A stretch of 44,717 nt of DNA from a phage, in NCBI GenBank assembly GCA_036609835.1, contig GCA_036609835.1_4358.1. One strand, given 5' to 3'. Of the stretch, positions 8,627 through 33,516 are shown one piece after another (the stretch's first letter is position 1; every line of letters begins with the position of its first letter). The notes under the pieces were generated by a model. It saw only the letters and a list, made by a program, of their open reading frames with translations, was not told the DNA's origin and did not search any database. The position numbers and the translations under genes were made by a program.

Positions 8627-8655
8627 TTGCACACCCCAATATAATAGTGTACTAT
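8627..8655 (+). promoter_or_regulatory. Sigma70-type promoter TTGCAC-N17-TACTAT with AATAG-N4-CTATT palindrome, driving the plus-strand insert operon
   Basis: ttgcacaccccaatataatagtgtactat; 19-mer gcacaccccaatataatag is repeated exactly at 18182; same motif in reverse at 29839-29867. Confidence 0.6.
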
Positions 8656-8696
8656 TCACTTACACCAACGATGTTATCCCAAACAGGAGCTACACC

Positions 8697-8888
8697 ATGA
8701 CGGGTATTACTATGTTCTTCTTAATCATTATCGTTTTAGTTTATTTTATTCCATTTCTCGTGGCGCATATGCGCGACCATAAAGCGAAATTAGCGATATT
8801 CATGGCTAATCTGTTTCTTGGATGGGTTCTGCTGCCGTGGGTATTTATTTTAATCTGGGCTTGCAACTCGAATGTCAAAGAGAAGTGA
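8697..8888 (+). CDS. Small membrane protein of the superinfection-immunity (Imm-like) family, 63 aa
   Basis: ATG 8697 after AAACAGGAG; MTGITMFFLIIIVLVYFIPFLVAHMRDHKAKLAIFMANLFLGWVLLPWVFILIWA matches the YF.P..A..R.H....I...N..LGW...W...L.WA signature recalled from memory. Confidence 0.6.
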   Translation: MTGITMFFLIIIVLVYFIPFLVAHMRDHKAKLAIFMANLFLGWVLLPWVFILIWACNSNVKEK

Positions 8889-8925
8889 GCTAGTATAGGA
8901 CAAATCCTAAACACGAGGAATAAAC

Positions 8926-10056
8926 ATGGCCCGGAAGAAAATAACCGACGAACAGTTGCAGGAAGAATTGAACGCCGGTATGAAGAATGTAGATATCGCC
9001 CGTAAATACGGCATCTCAGACCGCGTTATTCGTATCCGTAAAGCGAAGCTGGCTAAGAAAGGCGTAGGCCACGGGCGCGACGTTAGTCACCTTGTACCAG
9101 ACGGTTACAAGATTAAAGGAACGTCGTCCCTGGTGGACGAGTTCGGCAACACTAAGTTGCAATGGGTTAAGACCGACGCTGATGCCGAACGTCAGGTTGA
9201 ATTGATGAAAGCCGTAATAGAGGGCATGAAGTCAGAGATTACGCCCGTTGCGCCTGTTAAACCGGCACGAGCCAAACGTGACGATAAACTACTCAATCTT
9301 TACACGGTATCTGATTTCCATCTCGGTATGCTGGCATGGGCCGATGAGAGCGGCGACGACTGGGACATGAAGATTGCAGAAGACCTGTTCTCTCGGTGGT
9401 TCGACGCGGCGTTTCAGAAAGCACCGGATGCAGGAACAGGAGTTATTAACCTGCTTGGGGACTTCGCACACTTCGATAGTCTTGATGCCGTTACCCCCGA
9501 GTCGCGCCATGTATTAGATGCGGATACTCGCTATCAGAAACTGGTACGTTACATGATTCGTATGGTCCGCCGTGTTGTTGATATGGCGCTGGTTAAGCAT
9601 CACACAGTAAAACTTTTAATCGTTCAAGGTAACCACGACCCTGTTGGCTCCGTATGGCTTGCCGAAATGTTCACGGTTTTATACTCAAACGACAGCCGAG
9701 TGATTGTTGATACGTCGCCGGATGTTTACAAGATGGTGCAACACGGCAAAACGACGCTGTTCTTCCATCACGGGCATAAAGCACGATTCGACGCTATCGA
9801 ACCGGTTATGATTGCCAAGTTCCGTAAAGCGTTCGGCGAGAGTGTTTACAGCTACGCCCACGTAGGCCATCTGCACCACCAGAAGATTGTAGAAAGCCGT
9901 AACATGATTGTTGAGCAACACCGCACCTTAGCGGCTAAAGACGCCTACGCCTCTCGCGGCGGATGGATGTCGGGCCGCAGTGCAAATGTAATTACTTATA
10001 GCGCCGAATATGGCGAGGTCGCACGTTTAACTATTTCACCGGAGATGCTGGGATGA
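8926..10056 (+). CDS. N-terminal HTH domain fused to a calcineurin-like metallophosphoesterase, 376 aa
   Basis: HTH-like NVDIARKYGISDRVIRIRKAK; phosphoesterase motifs SDFHLG, LLGDFAH, VQGNHD, FFHHGH, HVGHLHH in canonical order. Confidence 0.6.
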   Translation: MARKKITDEQLQEELNAGMKNVDIARKYGISDRVIRIRKAKLAKKGVGHGRDVSHLVPDGYKIKGTSSLVDEFGNTKLQWVKTDADAERQVELMKAVIEGMKSEITPVAPVKPARAKRDDKLLNLYTVSDFHLGMLAWADESGDDWDMKIAEDLFSRWFDAAFQKAPDAGTGVINLLGDFAHFDSLDAVTPESRHVLDADTRYQKLVRYMIRMVRRVVDMALVKHHTVKLLIVQGNHDPVGSVWLAEMFTVLYSNDSRVIVDTSPDVYKMVQHGKTTLFFHHGHKARFDAIEPVMIAKFRKAFGESVYSYAHVGHLHHQKIVESRNMIVEQHRTLAAKDAYASRGGWMSGRSANVITYSAEYGEVARLTISPEMLG

Positions 10057-10541
10057 AAGATATTGTAATTTTCGATTTAGACGGGACATTGGCCGACGGT
10101 ACCAATCGCTTACACCTGTTACCAAAAGATAACTACGGAGAAACGTGGGCGTGGAAGCCATTTAACATGGCCTGCAAAGATGACGCTCCGATATACGACA
10201 ATATCCATTTGTGTAGCGTACTGTGGCATTCCGGACTTACTATAATTATCCTTACCGGGCGAAGTGATGACGCTGAGGAGGAGACTCGCGAATGGTTACG
10301 AGAGAATAACGTTAGGTTTGACACGCTAATCATGCGCAGCAAACACGACAACAGAAAAGACATCGTAATTAAAGAAGAGGTGTTGCGTGCTTTCGGACTG
10401 GAAAGAATCTTGTGTGCGTTCGACGACTCTCCAGCGGTAATAAAGCATTTCCGTGACCTCGGCATAACCGCACACGCAGTTACCGAATACGACTGTAACG
10501 GGAACTCTACACACTTAAAACCACACGGGAGCGATAAATAA
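10053..10541 (+). CDS. HAD-family phosphatase resembling the 3'-phosphatase domain of T4 polynucleotide kinase-phosphatase, 162 aa
   Basis: DxDGT motif (IVIFDLDGTLADG), GRSDD, RKDIVIKEEVL and FDDSPAVIKHFRDLGI align by eye with T4 Pnkp C-terminal motifs; ATGA start/stop overlap. Confidence 0.6.
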   Translation: MKDIVIFDLDGTLADGTNRLHLLPKDNYGETWAWKPFNMACKDDAPIYDNIHLCSVLWHSGLTIIILTGRSDDAEEETREWLRENNVRFDTLIMRSKHDNRKDIVIKEEVLRAFGLERILCAFDDSPAVIKHFRDLGITAHAVTEYDCNGNSTHLKPHGSDK

Positions 10542-11095
10542 TGGCTAAGGTAATTATTCTTAATGGCCCTGCGGGTTGCGGGAAAGACACGCTTGCTATG
10601 GCGCTGGTAGAAATGGGCTTTGCGAAAGGAACTACCAGTTTCAAGAATCCAATGTTCAATATTGCTTTGGCAGCGTTAGGCCAGGATGCTTACCACGAAT
10701 TTCTCGACGGCTACGACGACCGGGCGCGGAAAGAAAAACCCGAGGGTTTTCTTAATGGGTTGTCCCGCCGCCGGTTAATGATTGCCATTTCTGAGCAATT
10801 CATTAAACCGGTATTCGGCGATGATTATTTCGGTAAGTATCTTGCTGAAAACTTGCCTGACGGCGACGAAGTTTTTGTAGTGTCCGATGGTGGATTCGCC
10901 AGTGAAGTTGCCCCTATCGTCGCCGCGGGGCATGACGTGCGAATCGTCCGCCTCCATCGTGACGGCTATACGTTCATCTGCGATAGCCGTGGCTATCTGT
11001 ACGATGTTAGTGGTGTAAAAGATTACGACACCTACATCATACCGGGTGACGTTAAATCGAACGTTATAGACATTGCTTTAAAATTAGGTTTGTAA
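10541..11095 (+). CDS. Deoxynucleoside monophosphate kinase-like P-loop kinase (T4 gp1-like), 184 aa
   Basis: Walker A GPAGCGKDT; RRRLMIAISEQF and VFVVSDGGFASEV...VRIVRLHRDG resemble T4 dNMP kinase blocks recalled from memory. Confidence 0.55.
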   Translation: MAKVIILNGPAGCGKDTLAMALVEMGFAKGTTSFKNPMFNIALAALGQDAYHEFLDGYDDRARKEKPEGFLNGLSRRRLMIAISEQFIKPVFGDDYFGKYLAENLPDGDEVFVVSDGGFASEVAPIVAAGHDVRIVRLHRDGYTFICDSRGYLYDVSGVKDYDTYIIPGDVKSNVIDIALKLGL

Positions 11096-11126
11096 GAAAA
11101 AGGCCCCGAAAGGGGCCTTAGTTTTA
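11096..11126. terminator. Bidirectional rho-independent terminator
   Basis: aaaaaggccccgaaaggggccttagtttt: GC stem with A-run upstream and T-run downstream; between convergent kinase and major tail genes. Confidence 0.7.
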
Positions 11127-17281: not shown

Positions 17282-17363
17282 AGTCAGTATGTCCCCTGGA
17301 CGTTGGAACCCGGGCCACCCGGATTTACATGTCAAGAATAAATTATTCCAACATGCAAGGCAA

Positions 17364-17627
17364 CTATTCCAGAATATTCCTCACATAATCCTGCAACTGG
17401 AATACTTTCAGACGCAGTTGCCGCACGCATTCGGCGTTCTGAACGTCTATAGCCAAATCCTCGTCAGCATCGCTACTTGGCGCTGCCAGTTTGCACGGAG
17501 GCTGCATCATCGTCGTATCCGGTAATGGAATTAGCGTTTGCGACGGCGCGGGACTTGAGCAGGACGCGAGCATCGTCAAAAGTGCACACGCTGCGACCAG
17601 GCGTTTTAATGTACTTAACGACTTCAC
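17364..17627 (-). CDS. Outer-membrane spanin (Rz1-like lipoprotein), 87 aa
   Basis: Lipobox LTMLASC then Pro-rich SSPAPSQTLIPLPDTTMMQPP; starts inside the i-spanin gene in another frame and extends past its end. Confidence 0.65.
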   Translation of the reverse strand: MKSLSTLKRLVAACALLTMLASCSSPAPSQTLIPLPDTTMMQPPCKLAAPSSDADEDLAIDVQNAECVRQLRLKVFQLQDYVRNILE

Positions 17628-17859
17628 GGGTAATCACCTCTGATTTCGTCTTGCCTTCGTTGTCAGCGGCGGCGGCCTTTGATTCATCCTGCTGCTGCCG
17701 TTGTGTTTTCTTCGCTAACTCAGCCTGTACTTTCTGCTGTTGCTGCGAAACGAGATTCGCCCGGCCTTCGTTCCAACCGCTGCGATACCGGTAGATGCCG
17801 TGTGTGTAAGCCAGGATGATGAAACATGCTCCTGCCACGACAGTTGCTTTAAGATTCAT
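17473..17859 (-). CDS. Inner-membrane spanin (Rz-like), 128 aa
   Basis: N-terminal TM helix ATVVAGACFIILAYTHGIY, then Gln/Lys-rich coiled coil; overlapped by Rz1-like ORF. Confidence 0.65.
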   Translation of the reverse strand: MNLKATVVAGACFIILAYTHGIYRYRSGWNEGRANLVSQQQQKVQAELAKKTQRQQQDESKAAAADNEGKTKSEVITREVVKYIKTPGRSVCTFDDARVLLKSRAVANANSITGYDDDAASVQTGSAK

Positions 17860-18179
17860 GTTTCCCCCTTTCTCGATAAGTAAAGCCCCGCCTTAAAGCG
17901 GGGCGCTAGTCCTTATCATTTAAACATAGAAACGGCGTAATCTCAGTAAACCCGTTACTTTTTACACAAGCAATAGAGTATGGCCCTTCCGAACGCGTCA
18001 GCGTAACTACACTCAGGACTTACGTCCCGCTCCGTTACCTGCCCGCGCCGCGGTCGCTTGTTCATACTTCACAAGCTCAGGTGGAGCTTATCATATTTTT
18101 AGTGAAAAGTCAACTATTCGAATAGTTTATTCCAACATTTACAATTCGGAGGAATAACTGGAATACGTAAATAAATAGT

Positions 18180-18208
18180 TTGCACACCCCAATATAATAG
18201 GGTACTAT
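18180..18208 (+). promoter_or_regulatory. Sigma70-type promoter TTGCAC-N17-TACTAT, near-identical to the one at 8627
   Basis: ttgcacaccccaatataatagggtactat followed by AAACAGGAGG RBS and ATG 18236. Confidence 0.6.
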
Positions 18209-18235
18209 TCAGTTAACTTAAACAGGAGGTGAAAA

Positions 18236-18439
18236 ATGTATGCAATTTGCGAAGTAGTTCAAGAGTTCGATGAAGAGTTCGACGGTGACTTGTGCCGGGT
18301 TAAAAAGGTTCTGCAGGTTTTCCCTGACGCAATGTCTGCTTACAAGGCATTAGATATATTTGAACCTGGAAGATACGGGGATTATGACACTGTTCTGAGG
18401 GTTGTCCATGAGCAGGATTTAAACACAAGATTCCGTTGA
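18236..18439 (+). CDS. Hypothetical protein, 67 aa (moron)
   Basis: Opposite strand to flanking head genes; own promoter, strong RBS and downstream terminator; acidic. Confidence 0.6.
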   Translation: MYAICEVVQEFDEEFDGDLCRVKKVLQVFPDAMSAYKALDIFEPGRYGDYDTVLRVVHEQDLNTRFR

Positions 18440-18440
18440 A

Positions 18441-18470
18441 AACTAAGGCCCCTTAATGGGGCCTTTTATC
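18441..18470. terminator. Bidirectional rho-independent terminator
   Basis: aaactaaggccccttaatggggccttttatc. Confidence 0.65.
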
Positions 18471-18930
18471 ATTCTGGTTTAGCGACCTTCGCCACTTTAC
18501 TGACGGCCTCTACGCCACCGGCATCGGTAACTTTAACGAAGTATTCACCAACTGCATTAACCGTCAGAGACAAGGCCTCTTCCGGGGCGTTTACCACTTC
18601 CTTACCGTCTTTGTACCAGGTCAGAGCATACGGTTCTTTACCCGCCTTAACTTCGACAGTGATAGTTGCGCTGCCATCTGTAAGTTCAGTGTCTTTCGGT
18701 TGCACAGAGAAATACACGTCACCAGCGTCCGCCAGATACGGAATTTCATAAAGCATACCCGCGGCAGAGAGTGCGATACCTGTCTTGTCTGCAAACGGCA
18801 TATCGTCTACTGGTGTACCGAGTACACTTTCATCTTCAATAAACACCACGTTCTCGCCAGAGCCAGACACGCGGGCGTACTGGACTACGCGACGCGACGG
18901 TACATCAGTTACTTTGAAAAAGCCCATCAT
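18469..18930 (-). CDS. Ig-like domain protein (putative head decoration), 153 aa
   Basis: ATITVEVKAGKEPYALTWYKDGKEV...GEYFVKVTD resembles an Ig-like fold. Confidence 0.45.
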   Translation of the reverse strand: MMGFFKVTDVPSRRVVQYARVSGSGENVVFIEDESVLGTPVDDMPFADKTGIALSAAGMLYEIPYLADAGDVYFSVQPKDTELTDGSATITVEVKAGKEPYALTWYKDGKEVVNAPEEALSLTVNAVGEYFVKVTDAGGVEAVSKVAKVAKPE

Positions 18931-19973: not shown

Positions 19974-20054
19974 ATACCCTCCTGTTTCGATATGACAATC
20001 ATATCAGTCGGTAACGTATTGGCATAATCATACGCATTTAAGGTTAAAAAGAGC

Positions 20055-20085
20055 TTGATTAAATTCTACATTCAAATGTAGAATT
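20055..20085 (+). promoter_or_regulatory. Promoter TTGATT-N18-TAGAAT overlapped by a perfect 11-bp-arm palindrome (candidate operator)
   Basis: aattctacatt-ca-aatgtagaatt at 20062-20085; AAACAGGAG RBS and ATG 20116 follow. Confidence 0.55.
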
Positions 20086-20115
20086 TAAACGTACACTTAA
20101 ACAGGAGAAATACAC

Positions 20116-20769
20116 ATGAAACTGCAAACATTAGAGTTCCCTTATGGAGAAATCACTTTTGACCGTGAAAACTTTATTAACGTAAACGAGCTGGTTGACC
20201 AGATGAACCGTTGGCGTTTAGACAACGGCATGGGGGCCAGAGAGCTTCGCCAGGTCATGGCAACGGATGGCTTCAAGATTTTCAAGGAGGAATGCGAAAA
20301 ACAACTCGGAATCGAGAATGCCATAAGGGCGACGAAAGGCCGAAACGGTCGCACCTTTGCATGTCTCCATCTGGCAGTATATATTGCTGAGCAATACAGC
20401 GCCTATTTCCATTTCCTCGTTATCGACCGCTTTATCACACAACGGCAGGTAGAACTACGAAACATTGGCGCGGTGAGCTTTGTCGAGCTTAACGCTGCCG
20501 TTAGTCGAATGATCGAGCGCACGGAGGGAAGAATTGGCCACAGTGGACACTTCATACAGGTGGCTAAAGCGGTAAAGGAATCCGTAGATATCCGCGACGT
20601 AACGGGTTTCGATACATGGGACTCTCAGGATGCGAAGACCAATCAGTTGCGAAGTGACATCCAGAAAGCTCTGGTGACGCTTCTTGACATGGAGGCCGTT
20701 AATACATGGGGTGAACTGAAAGAGGCGATACCTCGGGTTGTGCGTAAATGTGCGGCTAATATACGTTAA
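20116..20769 (+). CDS. KilA-N-like domain protein (putative), 217 aa (moron)
   Basis: KGRNGRTFACLHLAVYIAEQYSAYFHF resembles the conserved KilA-N core; own promoter/operator and terminator; opposite strand to portal and head genes. Confidence 0.45.
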   Translation: MKLQTLEFPYGEITFDRENFINVNELVDQMNRWRLDNGMGARELRQVMATDGFKIFKEECEKQLGIENAIRATKGRNGRTFACLHLAVYIAEQYSAYFHFLVIDRFITQRQVELRNIGAVSFVELNAAVSRMIERTEGRIGHSGHFIQVAKAVKESVDIRDVTGFDTWDSQDAKTNQLRSDIQKALVTLLDMEAVNTWGELKEAIPRVVRKCAANIR

Positions 20770-20796
20770 AACTAAGGCCCCTAGCGGGGCCTTTCT
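20770..20796. terminator. Bidirectional rho-independent terminator
   Basis: aaactaaggcccctagcggggcctttctattt. Confidence 0.65.
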
Positions 20797-20798
20797 AT

Positions 20799-28717: not shown

Positions 28718-28866
28718 ATTCTTCGCTCACCCCGTTATAGACGCCGTTGTAGTCCCCGTCGCAGATGAACGTGTAGAGCATATCTTCGTACTCGTCCTGC
28801 AACTCACCTAAAGTTACTTCGCTATAATCTTTCATCTTCTGTCTCTCCTCTAGTTTGTGTAAATGA

Positions 28867-29804: not shown

Positions 29805-29838
29805 TTCTAAATTCCTTATGTCTCGTTTCGATAAGTGA

Positions 29839-29867
29839 ATAGTATCCTATTATGTTGGGGTGTGCAA
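29839..29867 (-). promoter_or_regulatory. Leftward early promoter TTGCAC-N17-TACTAT with AATAG-N4-CTATT palindrome
   Basis: Reverse complement ttgcacaccccaacataataggatactat; near-identical to plus-strand promoters at 8627 and 18180. Confidence 0.6.
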
Positions 29868-33423: not shown

Positions 33424-33487
33424 GTCAATTACTCCTTAGTCAGTTGATATGTGAATAGTACCATATTAATTATTTTAGAAAAGCCCA

Positions 33488-33516
33488 TTGACATGTGAAT
33501 AGTTCGCTATTATAGT
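33488..33516 (+). promoter_or_regulatory. Rightward promoter TTGACA-N17-TATAGT with AATAG-N4-CTATT palindrome in the spacer
   Basis: ttgacatgtgaatagttcgctattatagt; a second related element (ttgatatgtgaatagtaccatat) lies at 33443-33465. Confidence 0.65.

What the first reader, a model, noticed from the sequence alone, without database searches (positions are those of the whole stretch)
18050..18470. 67-aa moron under a duplicate early promoter between head genes
A small acidic protein gene on the opposite strand to its neighbours carries a copy of the 8627 promoter (19-mer identity), a consensus RBS and a bidirectional terminator. A perfect 16-bp palindrome aactattcgaatagtt lies about 70 bp upstream. 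An early-expressed accessory gene inside the structural region is a candidate host-interaction factor.
Basis: seen in the sequence. Interest (0 to 1): 0.4.

Follow-up and report, generated by a model that had tools for sequence, protein, structure and literature searches.

The report
Swappable accessory-gene cassette in phage head genes
The 67-codon gene is a real, optional add-on ("moron") sitting in a plug-in slot of an E. coli Kagunavirus phage; related phages keep the same promoter and terminator there but carry at least eleven unrelated genes, or nothing. What its protein does is still unknown.

Summary
ORF 18236-18439 (+) encodes a 67-aa acidic protein (pI 4.5). It follows a 32-nt promoter-like element, a perfect Shine-Dalgarno sequence, and precedes a GC hairpin terminator.

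The window is a Kagunavirus (Guernseyvirinae), about 99% identical to BASEL phage Bas70 at this locus. Comparison with relatives supports the moron reading. The unit 18166-18468 is absent, promoter included, from many relatives. One relative keeps the promoter only. Others carry at least 11 unrelated ORFs between the same promoter, leader and terminator.

A second slot (19974-20798) has the same design and exchanges the same cargos.

The promoter is one of seven copies of a family, not a simple duplicate. "Early" timing is untested.

The 16-bp palindrome lies outside the cassette and is kept in empty alleles. It sits at the -35 of a predicted minus-strand promoter. That promoter would drive an ultra-conserved, structured leader of about 200 nt that ends in a terminator just before the spanin and head genes.

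The protein family is small and phage-only. It folds confidently but matches no characterised fold. Carriers remain restriction-sensitive.

Verdict: an ordinary but clean moron in an apparently undescribed hypervariable cassette slot.

The parts
18166..18468 (+). The whole moron cassette (promoter, leader, ORF, terminator). It is defined as the insertion relative to empty alleles.
   Evidence: Alignment with the empty alleles of K1ind2 and Sciku: similarity runs to GGAATA (18165) and resumes in the terminator. GC is 40.9%.
18180..18211 (+). Conserved 32-nt promoter-like element. Proposed -35 is TTGCAC (18180-18185), then a 17-nt spacer, then -10 TACTAT (18203-18208). The predicted TSS is near 18215.
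   Evidence: The element is kept with 0-6 mismatches in front of every cargo type. Function as a promoter is inferred, not shown.
18212..18235 (+). 5' leader GTTAACTTAAACAGGAGGTGAAAA, containing the Shine-Dalgarno sequence AGGAGGTGA (18224-18232).
   Evidence: The 13-mer ACTTAAACAGGAG is repeated at slot 2 (20095). The leader is shared by several cargo alleles.
18236..18439 (+). 67-aa ORF encoding an acidic, soluble alpha/beta protein of unknown function.
   Evidence: a protein family conserved across several phage groups. AF2 pLDDT 90; pI 4.5.
18445..18465 (.). GC-rich hairpin terminator AAGGCCCC-TTAAT-GGGGCCTT. It would serve the cassette on + and the Hoc-like gene on -.
   Evidence: The same AACTAAGGCCCC...GGGGCCTTT motif follows every cargo allele. 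It recurs at 20776, 11102 and 43140.
8627..8658 (+). Sister copy of the promoter. It drives a plus-strand island (8697-11095) inside the tail genes.
29836..29867 (-). Sister copy of the promoter (1-2 mismatches). It heads the minus-strand array of small ORFs. Further copies of the core lie at 28864, 33452, 33496 and 36322 (all -).
19974..20798 (+). Second cassette slot, between the head-morphogenesis and portal genes. Here it holds a 217-aa ORF (20116-20769) with the same leader and terminator but a different promoter.
   Evidence: Sciku, UTEC10 and VSt10 have the family promoter, leader and terminator at this site. VSt10 carries the 67-aa homologue there. The slot is empty in Bas70.
18112..18127 (.). 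16-bp palindrome. It is adjacent to the cassette but not part of it, and overlaps the -35 of the predicted minus-strand leader promoter.

Best explanation
The region 18166-18468 is a self-contained expression cassette (a moron). It sits in a hypervariable slot between the Hoc-like decoration gene and the leader of the spanin/head operon of a virulent Kagunavirus.

Proposed mechanism:
- Host sigma-70 RNA polymerase is predicted to start at about 18215 from TTGCAC-17-TACTAT. This is one of seven copies of a conserved phage promoter element.
- The roughly 250-nt mRNA carries a perfect Shine-Dalgarno sequence and one ORF.
- It stops at a GC hairpin that would also end the convergent Hoc transcript.
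- Because the conserved promoter/leader and terminator bracket the ORF, and recur at a second slot and elsewhere, homologous recombination between co-infecting phages can swap, delete or move the cargo.

The current cargo is a 7.9-kDa acidic cytoplasmic protein (beta-hairpin, helix, strand). It travels alone among enterobacterial phages. It most likely acts by binding a host or defence protein, and is dispensable for basic lytic growth.

Shown: the anatomy, presence/absence among relatives, cargo replacement, mosaic ancestry, and protein-level conservation. Inferred: promoter activity and timing, the recombination mechanism, and the protein's mode of action.
For: Anatomy.

Alleles at the same site: empty without promoter (K1ind2, Sciku), promoter only (BEU33), and 67-, 173-, 242-, 179-, 74-, 37-, 97-, 81- and 70-aa cargos. 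IMG/VR adds 57- and 83-aa cargos. Of 31 loci there, 12 are empty, 3 carry the 67-aa ORF and 6 the clamp-like ORF. Spread sampling of 301 records gives the same picture.

Same cassette ends at slot 2, with shared cargos: the clamp-like ORF in Sciku, and the 67-aa homologue in VSt10.

The EC3-1 allele carries the leader of the 29836 promoter copy, which indicates exchange between promoter copies.

Mosaicism: ORF 100% and cassette 99.7% identical to Bas70, against 88-89% for Hoc, MuF and MCP.

Low GC.

The protein family is conserved in Jerseyvirus, Cornellvirus, Jedunavirus and other Klebsiella phages, in unrelated contexts. In Geezett it is again on the opposite strand between MuF and portal.

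One GenBank annotator already wrote 'possible moron gene product' for the clamp-like cargo at this site.
Against: - No transcript data exist for this gene. The one Kagunavirus time course did not annotate the slot.
- The -35 matches consensus at only 3 of 6 positions, and the generic scan missed the promoter.
- The 18-nt core is conserved far beyond what sigma-70 needs. It could be a regulator site or a recombination handle as well as, or instead of, a simple constitutive promoter.
- Nothing identifies the protein's target. There are no Pfam or PADLOC hits and no significant PDB fold match.
- All seven BASEL carriers are highly sensitive to restriction-modification systems (PMC11990801).
Confidence: 0.8

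Rival explanations
1. The 67-aa protein is a counter-defence factor of the DNA-mimic anti-restriction type (Ocr/ArdA-like).
For: It is acidic (pI 4.5, net -6). The slot alternatively carries an N6-adenine methyltransferase, a classic anti-restriction cargo.
Against: The predicted fold is a small beta-hairpin/helix/strand unit, not an elongated helical mimic. No PADLOC, Pfam or PDB match supports it. Bas70-76 all encode the identical or near-identical protein yet show 'high sensitivity to RM systems' (PMC11990801).
Confidence: 0.07
2. The palindrome 18112-18127 is an operator that controls the moron promoter.
For: It lies 52 nt upstream of the -35. It shares the heptamer ACTATTC with the -10 region of the promoter family. 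Of the 11 ACTATTC sites in the window, 9 fall in the promoter family or the palindrome.
Against: The palindrome sits in the spacer that empty alleles retain, although they have no promoter or gene. It abuts and overlaps by 2 nt a predicted minus-strand promoter: TTGACT (18113-18108), 17 nt, TGaTAAGCT. That layout is kept in the diverged BPS11Q3 lineage, where the palindrome itself is degenerate. None of the other six promoter copies has such a palindrome. Such a palindrome is about as frequent as chance predicts.
Confidence: 0.1
3. The ORF is incidental. The real product is an antisense or regulatory RNA from the plus-strand promoter that modulates the convergent structural-gene transcripts.
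For: The cassette is convergent with the Hoc operon. The promoter-only allele (BEU33) shows the promoter can persist without an ORF.
Against: The amino-acid sequence is conserved down to 44-63% identity, with invariant residues, in unrelated genomic contexts and phage genera. The ORF has a perfect SD and a confident fold. The transcript would terminate before it enters Hoc.
Confidence: 0.03
4. The gene is a conserved, vertically inherited component of the head or lysis module, for example an assembly or lysis accessory.
For: It is located inside the structural gene block, next to decoration and spanin genes.
Against: It is absent from most relatives and replaced by unrelated ORFs. It is on the opposite strand with its own signals. 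Homologues in other phages sit in early small-gene arrays next to a primase or after the endolysin.
Confidence: 0.02

Closest known systems
Morons of lambdoid phages (the concept of Juhala, Hendrix and colleagues, 2000; cited from my own knowledge)
   Same: An extra gene between two conserved genes, present in some relatives only, flanked by its own promoter and terminator, with atypical base composition.
   Different: The host phage is virulent, so there is no expression from a prophage. Here the promoter and terminator are conserved 'sockets' that accept many alternative ORFs at two sites, rather than a one-off insertion.
PeSL (promoter-early stem-loop) regulatory cassettes of T4-type phages (Arbiol et al. 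2010, PMC2839356; Comeau et al. 2014, PMC4122927)
   Same: A repeated sigma-70-like promoter and stem-loop terminator motifs bound indels and replacements of ORFan genes between close relatives. Recombination between motif copies is the proposed shuffling mechanism.
   Different: PeSLs are composite terminator+promoter units clustered in hyperplastic regions of large myoviruses. Here the promoter and terminator bracket a single ORF inside the head-gene block of a 44-kb siphovirus. Mini-circles and promoter activity have not been tested here.
PHIRE 'phage promoter' consensus tgAATAGTa-ccTATTat-T of Kagunavirus fBC-Eco01 (PMC9825357)
   Same: It is the reverse complement of the core ATAATAGGNTACTATTCA found here. 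Both genomes have seven copies.
   Different: That paper assigned the motif to a phage-encoded RNA polymerase. No RNA polymerase gene is annotated in the near-identical Bas70 genome. The motif reads as -35/-10 for host polymerase with extra conserved bases.
phrog_27256 (unknown function)
   Same: Full-length match of the 67-aa protein (residues 2-67 to profile positions 4-65 of 65).
   Different: The E-value is only 4e-4, and the family has no assigned function.

Membership tests
Moron (autonomous accessory transcription unit in a phage genome) | Present in some and absent from other closely related genomes, between the same conserved neighbours | tested here: met
   Empty, promoter-only and filled alleles lie between the same Rz and Hoc-like genes.
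Moron (autonomous accessory transcription unit in a phage genome) | Own promoter upstream and own terminator downstream | tested here: met
   Met at sequence level only. A conserved promoter-like 32-mer and a hairpin of dG -16.5 kcal/mol followed by a T-tract. Promoter and terminator activity were not measured.
Moron (autonomous accessory transcription unit in a phage genome) | Base composition differs from the surrounding genes | tested here: met
   ORF 43.1% and cassette 40.9% GC, against 50.4-56.2% for Hoc, MuF, Rz and MCP.
Moron (autonomous accessory transcription unit in a phage genome) | Transcribed independently of the flanking operon | not testable with these tools
   This needs TSS mapping or time-resolved RNA-seq. 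The published K1B4 data set did not annotate the slot.
PeSL-type shuffling cassettes (T4-like phages) | A conserved early-type promoter motif repeated at several genome positions | tested here: met
   7 copies of the core against 0.05 expected.
PeSL-type shuffling cassettes (T4-like phages) | Promoter fused to a stem-loop terminator as one composite motif | tested here: not met
   Promoter and terminator lie on opposite sides of the ORF. They are adjacent only in the ORF-less BEU33 allele.
PeSL-type shuffling cassettes (T4-like phages) | Indels and replacements between close relatives are bounded by the motifs | tested here: met
   All cargo alleles switch between the promoter/leader and AACTAAGGCCCC...GGGGCC. 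The same holds at slot 2.
PeSL-type shuffling cassettes (T4-like phages) | Excised mini-circles formed by recombination between motifs | not testable with these tools
   This requires PCR or sequencing of infected-cell DNA.
Ocr/ArdA-type DNA-mimic anti-restriction proteins | Elongated, highly acidic helical DNA mimic that confers resistance to type I restriction | tested here: not met
   The predicted fold is beta-hairpin/helix/strand. pI is 4.5. There is no family hit. Carriers Bas70-76 are RM-sensitive; that evidence is indirect.
ClpS-like adaptor fold | Significant structural superposition on the ClpS core | tested here: inconclusive

The most novel reading that the evidence does not exclude
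Guernseyvirinae carry a two-socket gene-cassette system. The sockets lie after the portal gene and after the Hoc-like gene. A shared promoter/leader and a shared terminator act both as expression signals and as recombination handles, comparable to PeSLs of T4-like phages but in small siphoviruses. The system circulates a pool of at least 11 mostly ORFan cargos. The 67-aa protein would be one of these: a previously unrecognised small inhibitor of a host defence or host takeover target.
Probability: 0.3. Interest if true: 0.6.

Novelty: new member of a known kind. Interest (0 to 1): 0.38.

Why it matters
The slot gives a compact, naturally replicated experiment. Near-isogenic phages differ mainly in which small gene they plug into the same promoter/terminator socket, and several of them are in the public BASEL collection. 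That makes the cargos, including this 67-aa protein, directly testable as host-range or counter-defence factors. It also marks a safe insertion site with native expression signals for engineering these 41-45 kb phages. On its own, the gene is an ordinary moron of unknown function.

Tried and rejected
- Pfam and PADLOC scans of the 67-aa protein found nothing. PHROGs gave only a weak match to an unknown-function family.
- Conserved partner gene: the ORFs next to the homologues in Geezett and vB_Kpn2-P2 are unrelated to each other and to the clamp-like cargo. Rejected.
- Domain fusions among distant homologues (P0026, P0029) look like read-through or mis-called starts and were uninformative.
- Bacterial origin: the cassette has no match in 5,426 complete E. 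coli genomes.
- Rfam: no family in the region or in the whole window. No tRNAs.
- The annotated 36-aa ORF 17955-18065 (-) was considered as a gene. Rejected, because a 1-nt indel in K1ind2, L025 and L038 and an 11-nt gap in the BPS11Q3 lineage break the frame.
- The Kagunavirus RNA-seq paper (PMC12645636) was checked for timing. It leaves a 925-bp unannotated gap at this slot and uses a coarse peak-time classification, so it says nothing about this cassette.
- Other small cargos were scanned for known anti-defence families. None was found.

Full report
**What the window is.** Megablast of 17860-18480 finds 182 phage records, all Guernseyvirinae (Kagunavirus of E. coli, Jerseyvirus of Salmonella). 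The best hits are 99% identical and include BASEL phages Bas70-76. In the window the structural genes run on the minus strand. The finding lies between the Hoc-like Ig decoration gene (18469-18930, -) and the overlapping Rz/Rz1 spanin pair (17473-17859 and 17364-17627, -). The scaffold and major capsid genes follow.

**Observation.**
- The ORF 18236-18439 (+) encodes 67 aa, with 14 acidic against 8 basic residues and pI 4.5.
- It is preceded by AGGAGGTGA (18224-18232) and by TTGCACACCCCAATATAATAGGGTACTATTCA (18180-18211).
- The first 21 nt of that element are identical at 8627, and a one-mismatch copy lies at 29847 (-). That is 3 hits against 0.01 expected. Identity to the 8627 copy is 31 of 32.
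- The hairpin 18445-18465 folds at -16.5 (+) and -16.0 (-) kcal/mol. The T-tract is better on the plus strand.
- The palindrome AACTATTCGAATAGTT is at 18112-18127. A 16-bp perfect palindrome is expected about 0.9 times per window, and two exist.

**The promoter is a family, not a duplicate.** The core ATAATAGGNTACTATTCA occurs seven times: 8641+, 18194+, 28864-, 29836-, 33452-, 33496- and 36322- (expected 0.05). Four copies share TTGCAC, a 17-nt spacer and TACTAT, and each lies 20-45 nt upstream of a start codon on the same strand. The reverse complement of the core is the 'phage promoter' consensus tgAATAGTa-ccTATTat-T, also seven copies, reported for Kagunavirus fBC-Eco01 and there attributed to a phage RNA polymerase (PMC9825357). 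No RNA polymerase gene is annotated in Bas70. I therefore read the element as a host-polymerase promoter with extra conserved positions. Its activity and timing are inferred. The generic scan did not call it, because the -35 matches only 3 of 6 positions.

**Comparative anatomy of the slot.** Only the first ~380 nt of the query, up to the start codon, are conserved in most relatives. After that the annotated gene differs. I fetched 15 alleles and aligned them.
- K1ind2 and Sciku have neither promoter nor gene. The conserved spacer runs to GGAATA (window 18165) and joins directly to a terminator, AAAAAGCCCCTTTCGGGGCT.
- BEU33 keeps the promoter, but the ORF is deleted between GTTAA and AAACTAAGG.
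- All other alleles keep the promoter (0-6 mismatches), usually the leader GTTAACTTAAACAGGAG, and the terminator AACTAAGGCCCC-loop-GGGGCCTTTTA.
- Between those ends they carry unrelated ORFs:
  - the 67-aa ORF;
  - a 173-aa beta-clamp-like ORF (phrog_3007);
  - a 242-aa N6-adenine methyltransferase;
  - a 179-aa HNH/endonuclease VII-like ORF;
  - ORFs of 74, 37, 97, 81 and 70 aa.

A pattern scan of IMG/VR added 31 loci with both flanks.
- 12 are empty.
- 3 carry the 67-aa ORF, 6 the clamp-like ORF and 2 the methyltransferase.
- The remaining eight carry short ORFs of 33/37, 70/75, 81 and 94 aa plus new cargos of 57 and 83 aa.

Evenly spaced sampling of 301 GenBank records shows the same length classes. 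The cassette 18166-18468 is therefore an optional unit, and the ORF inside it is replaceable.

**A second slot.** The gap between the head-morphogenesis and portal genes (19974-20798) behaves the same way. It is empty in Bas70. In Sciku, UTEC10 and VSt10 it holds the same promoter, leader and terminator with, respectively, the clamp-like ORF, two small ORFs, and a 63%-identical homologue of the 67-aa ORF. In this window it holds a 217-aa ORF (KilA-N-like; phrog_6095) with the same leader 13-mer and the same terminator type. Its promoter is different: TTGATT, 18 nt, TAGAAT, overlapped by a 24-bp inverted repeat at 20062-20085.

**Evidence for exchange rather than vertical descent.**
- Against Bas70 the ORF is 100% and the cassette 99.7% identical, while Hoc, MuF and MCP are 88-89% identical.
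- The cassette is 41% GC against 50-56% for the neighbours.
- The EC3-1 allele carries, after the promoter, the leader that in this window follows the 29836 promoter copy. This indicates recombination between promoter copies at different loci.
- These features resemble the PeSL-mediated shuffling described for T4-type phages (PMC2839356, PMC4122927), but the promoter and terminator here bracket the ORF instead of forming one composite motif.
- One GenBank annotator had already written 'possible moron gene product' for the clamp-like cargo. I found no paper describing the slot.

**The protein.**
- tblastn finds it in 33 phage records. Twenty are Kagunaviruses with it in this slot. The rest are Jerseyvirus VSt10 (slot 2), Cornellvirus Shemara (small-gene array after the endolysin), Klebsiella Jedunavirus Geezett (opposite strand, between MuF and portal), vB_Kpn2-P2 (next to the primase) and others.
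- A profile search of 1.84 billion representative proteins returns only 22 clusters. The 5.8-billion-protein set gives 18.
- The alignment has invariant C5, F15-D16-G17, V22, L26-Q27, F29, A35, R55, V57 and a C-terminal F-R, so it is a real protein under selection.
- AlphaFold2 gives pLDDT 90. The model has strands 2-12 and 17-29, helices 32-41 and 44-47, and a strand at 53-58.
- No conserved neighbour exists.
- All seven BASEL Kagunaviruses encode it (six at 100% identity, Bas73 at 98.5%), yet they are reported as highly RM-sensitive. This argues against an Ocr-like role.
- The cassette has no match in complete E. coli genomes.
- My best guess, marked as inference, is a small cytoplasmic binder or inhibitor of a host or defence protein.

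**Timing.** 'Early' is not established. The sister promoters head an island inside the tail genes and the small-ORF arrays. The only Kagunavirus time course (K1B4) classifies just four genes as early. Its annotation leaves a 925-bp gap between the Hoc-like and Rz genes. That length matches a clamp-like cargo, but no expression is reported for it.

**The palindrome and what lies beside the cassette.** The palindrome belongs to the spacer 17860-18165, which every allele keeps, including the empty ones.
- This spacer is 96-100% identical to Salmonella phage S100, while the flanking genes are 61-92% identical.
- 179 of 181 phage records are at least 95% identical over 241 nt of it.
- Read on the minus strand it contains TTGACT (18113-18108), a 17-nt spacer, and TGaTAAGCT (an extended -10, hexamer 18090-18085). 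A leader of about 200 nt follows. Then comes a strong terminator (17904-17885, -17.2 kcal/mol), immediately before the Rz ribosome-binding site.
- The diverged BPS11Q3-type Jerseyviruses keep the promoter layout, the hairpins and the terminator through compensatory changes.
- RNAalifold on 13 sequences predicts 35 pairs, 8 of them with changes on both sides.
- Pair counting gives 98.5% of cells paired against 35-54% for slid controls, and a covariation score of 0.24 against at most 0.05.
- The sense strand folds better than the antisense strand (-79 against -58 kcal/mol).
- The palindrome overlaps the -35 of this minus-strand promoter and would be centred near -41.5 from the predicted start. 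It is part of an array of TATTC(C) motifs: five in 50 bp here, and six in 80 bp at 17336-17400.
- I therefore assign the palindrome to control of the minus-strand leader, not to the moron.
- The arrangement resembles a promoter-leader-terminator unit of the kind used for late-gene antitermination (lambda PR'-6S-tR' or HK022 put; from my own knowledge). That resemblance is a lead only.
- No Rfam family matches.

**Verdict.** The finding is a genuine moron, and its sequence features are confirmed. It sits in one of two hypervariable cassette sockets of Guernseyvirinae. Its protein is a rare, mobile, phage-only ORFan with a confident but unassigned fold. The concept is known, the particular slot architecture appears undescribed, and the function is open.

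Noticed in passing
window 17880-18113, minus strand: An ultra-conserved noncoding element. It is 96-100% identical to a Salmonella Jerseyvirus while the flanking genes are 61-92% identical, and 179 of 181 phage records are at least 95% identical over it. It reads as a predicted promoter (TTGACT, 17 nt, TGaTAAGCT), a structured leader of about 200 nt, and a terminator at 17904-17885 just before the Rz start. The structure has covariation support: 8 pairs with double-sided changes, including a long-range helix that pairs the 5' end with the region around the Rz SD. There is no Rfam match. It may be a late-operon antitermination or processing leader.
   Followed up: partly
window 18115-18165 and 17336-17400: Two clusters of TATTC(C) motifs: 5 in 50 bp, and 6 in 80 bp. 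In shuffles, the densest 80-bp cluster held 4 or more motifs in only 12 of 200 runs. Both clusters lie upstream, on the minus strand, of the leader/spanin genes and of the scaffold gene. The heptamer ACTATTC also forms the -10 region of the seven-copy promoter family. The motifs may be sites for one phage regulator.
   Followed up: partly
window 19974-20798: A second cassette slot, between the head-morphogenesis and portal genes. It holds a 217-aa plus-strand ORF (weak KilA-N match; phrog_6095 at E 9e-121) that is absent from Bas70. It has the same leader 13-mer and terminator as slot 1. Its promoter is different (TTGATT at 20055-20060, TAGAAT at 20079-20084) and is overlapped by a perfect 10+10 inverted repeat at 20062-20085.
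   Followed up: partly
window 8627-11125, plus strand: A larger opposite-strand island inside the tail genes, under a sister copy of the promoter and closed by the same terminator type (11102). It encodes a 63-aa membrane protein, a 376-aa exonuclease-like protein, a 162-aa ORF with a DxDGT motif and a 184-aa P-loop ORF. Bas70 has a different, shorter distal end.
   Followed up: no
window 17955-18065, minus strand: A 36-aa ORF annotated as 'hypothetical protein' in Bas70, Sciku and fEg-Eco19. It lies inside the structured leader and is frameshifted or gapped in K1ind2-type and BPS11Q3-type relatives. It is probably not a gene.
   Followed up: yes
L017 (phage EC3-1) slot 1, compared with window 29805-29835: After the promoter, the EC3-1 cargo allele carries the leader CTTATCGAAACGAGAGATAAGGAACTTAAAG. 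This matches the leader downstream of the 29836 promoter copy in this window, which suggests recombination between promoter copies at distant loci.
   Followed up: partly
Published K1B4 annotation (PMC12645636, Table S2): The only Kagunavirus RNA-seq genome has unannotated gaps of 925 bp (Hoc-like to Rz) and 894 bp (portal to MuF). These are exactly where the two cassette slots lie, so expression of the cargos was not reported.
   Followed up: yes
window 33452-33513, minus strand: Two tandem copies of the promoter core, 44 nt apart. They lie upstream of a small ORF that corresponds by position to the Bas70 'transcriptional regulator' gene. The regulator may control its own promoter and the rest of the family.
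   Followed up: no
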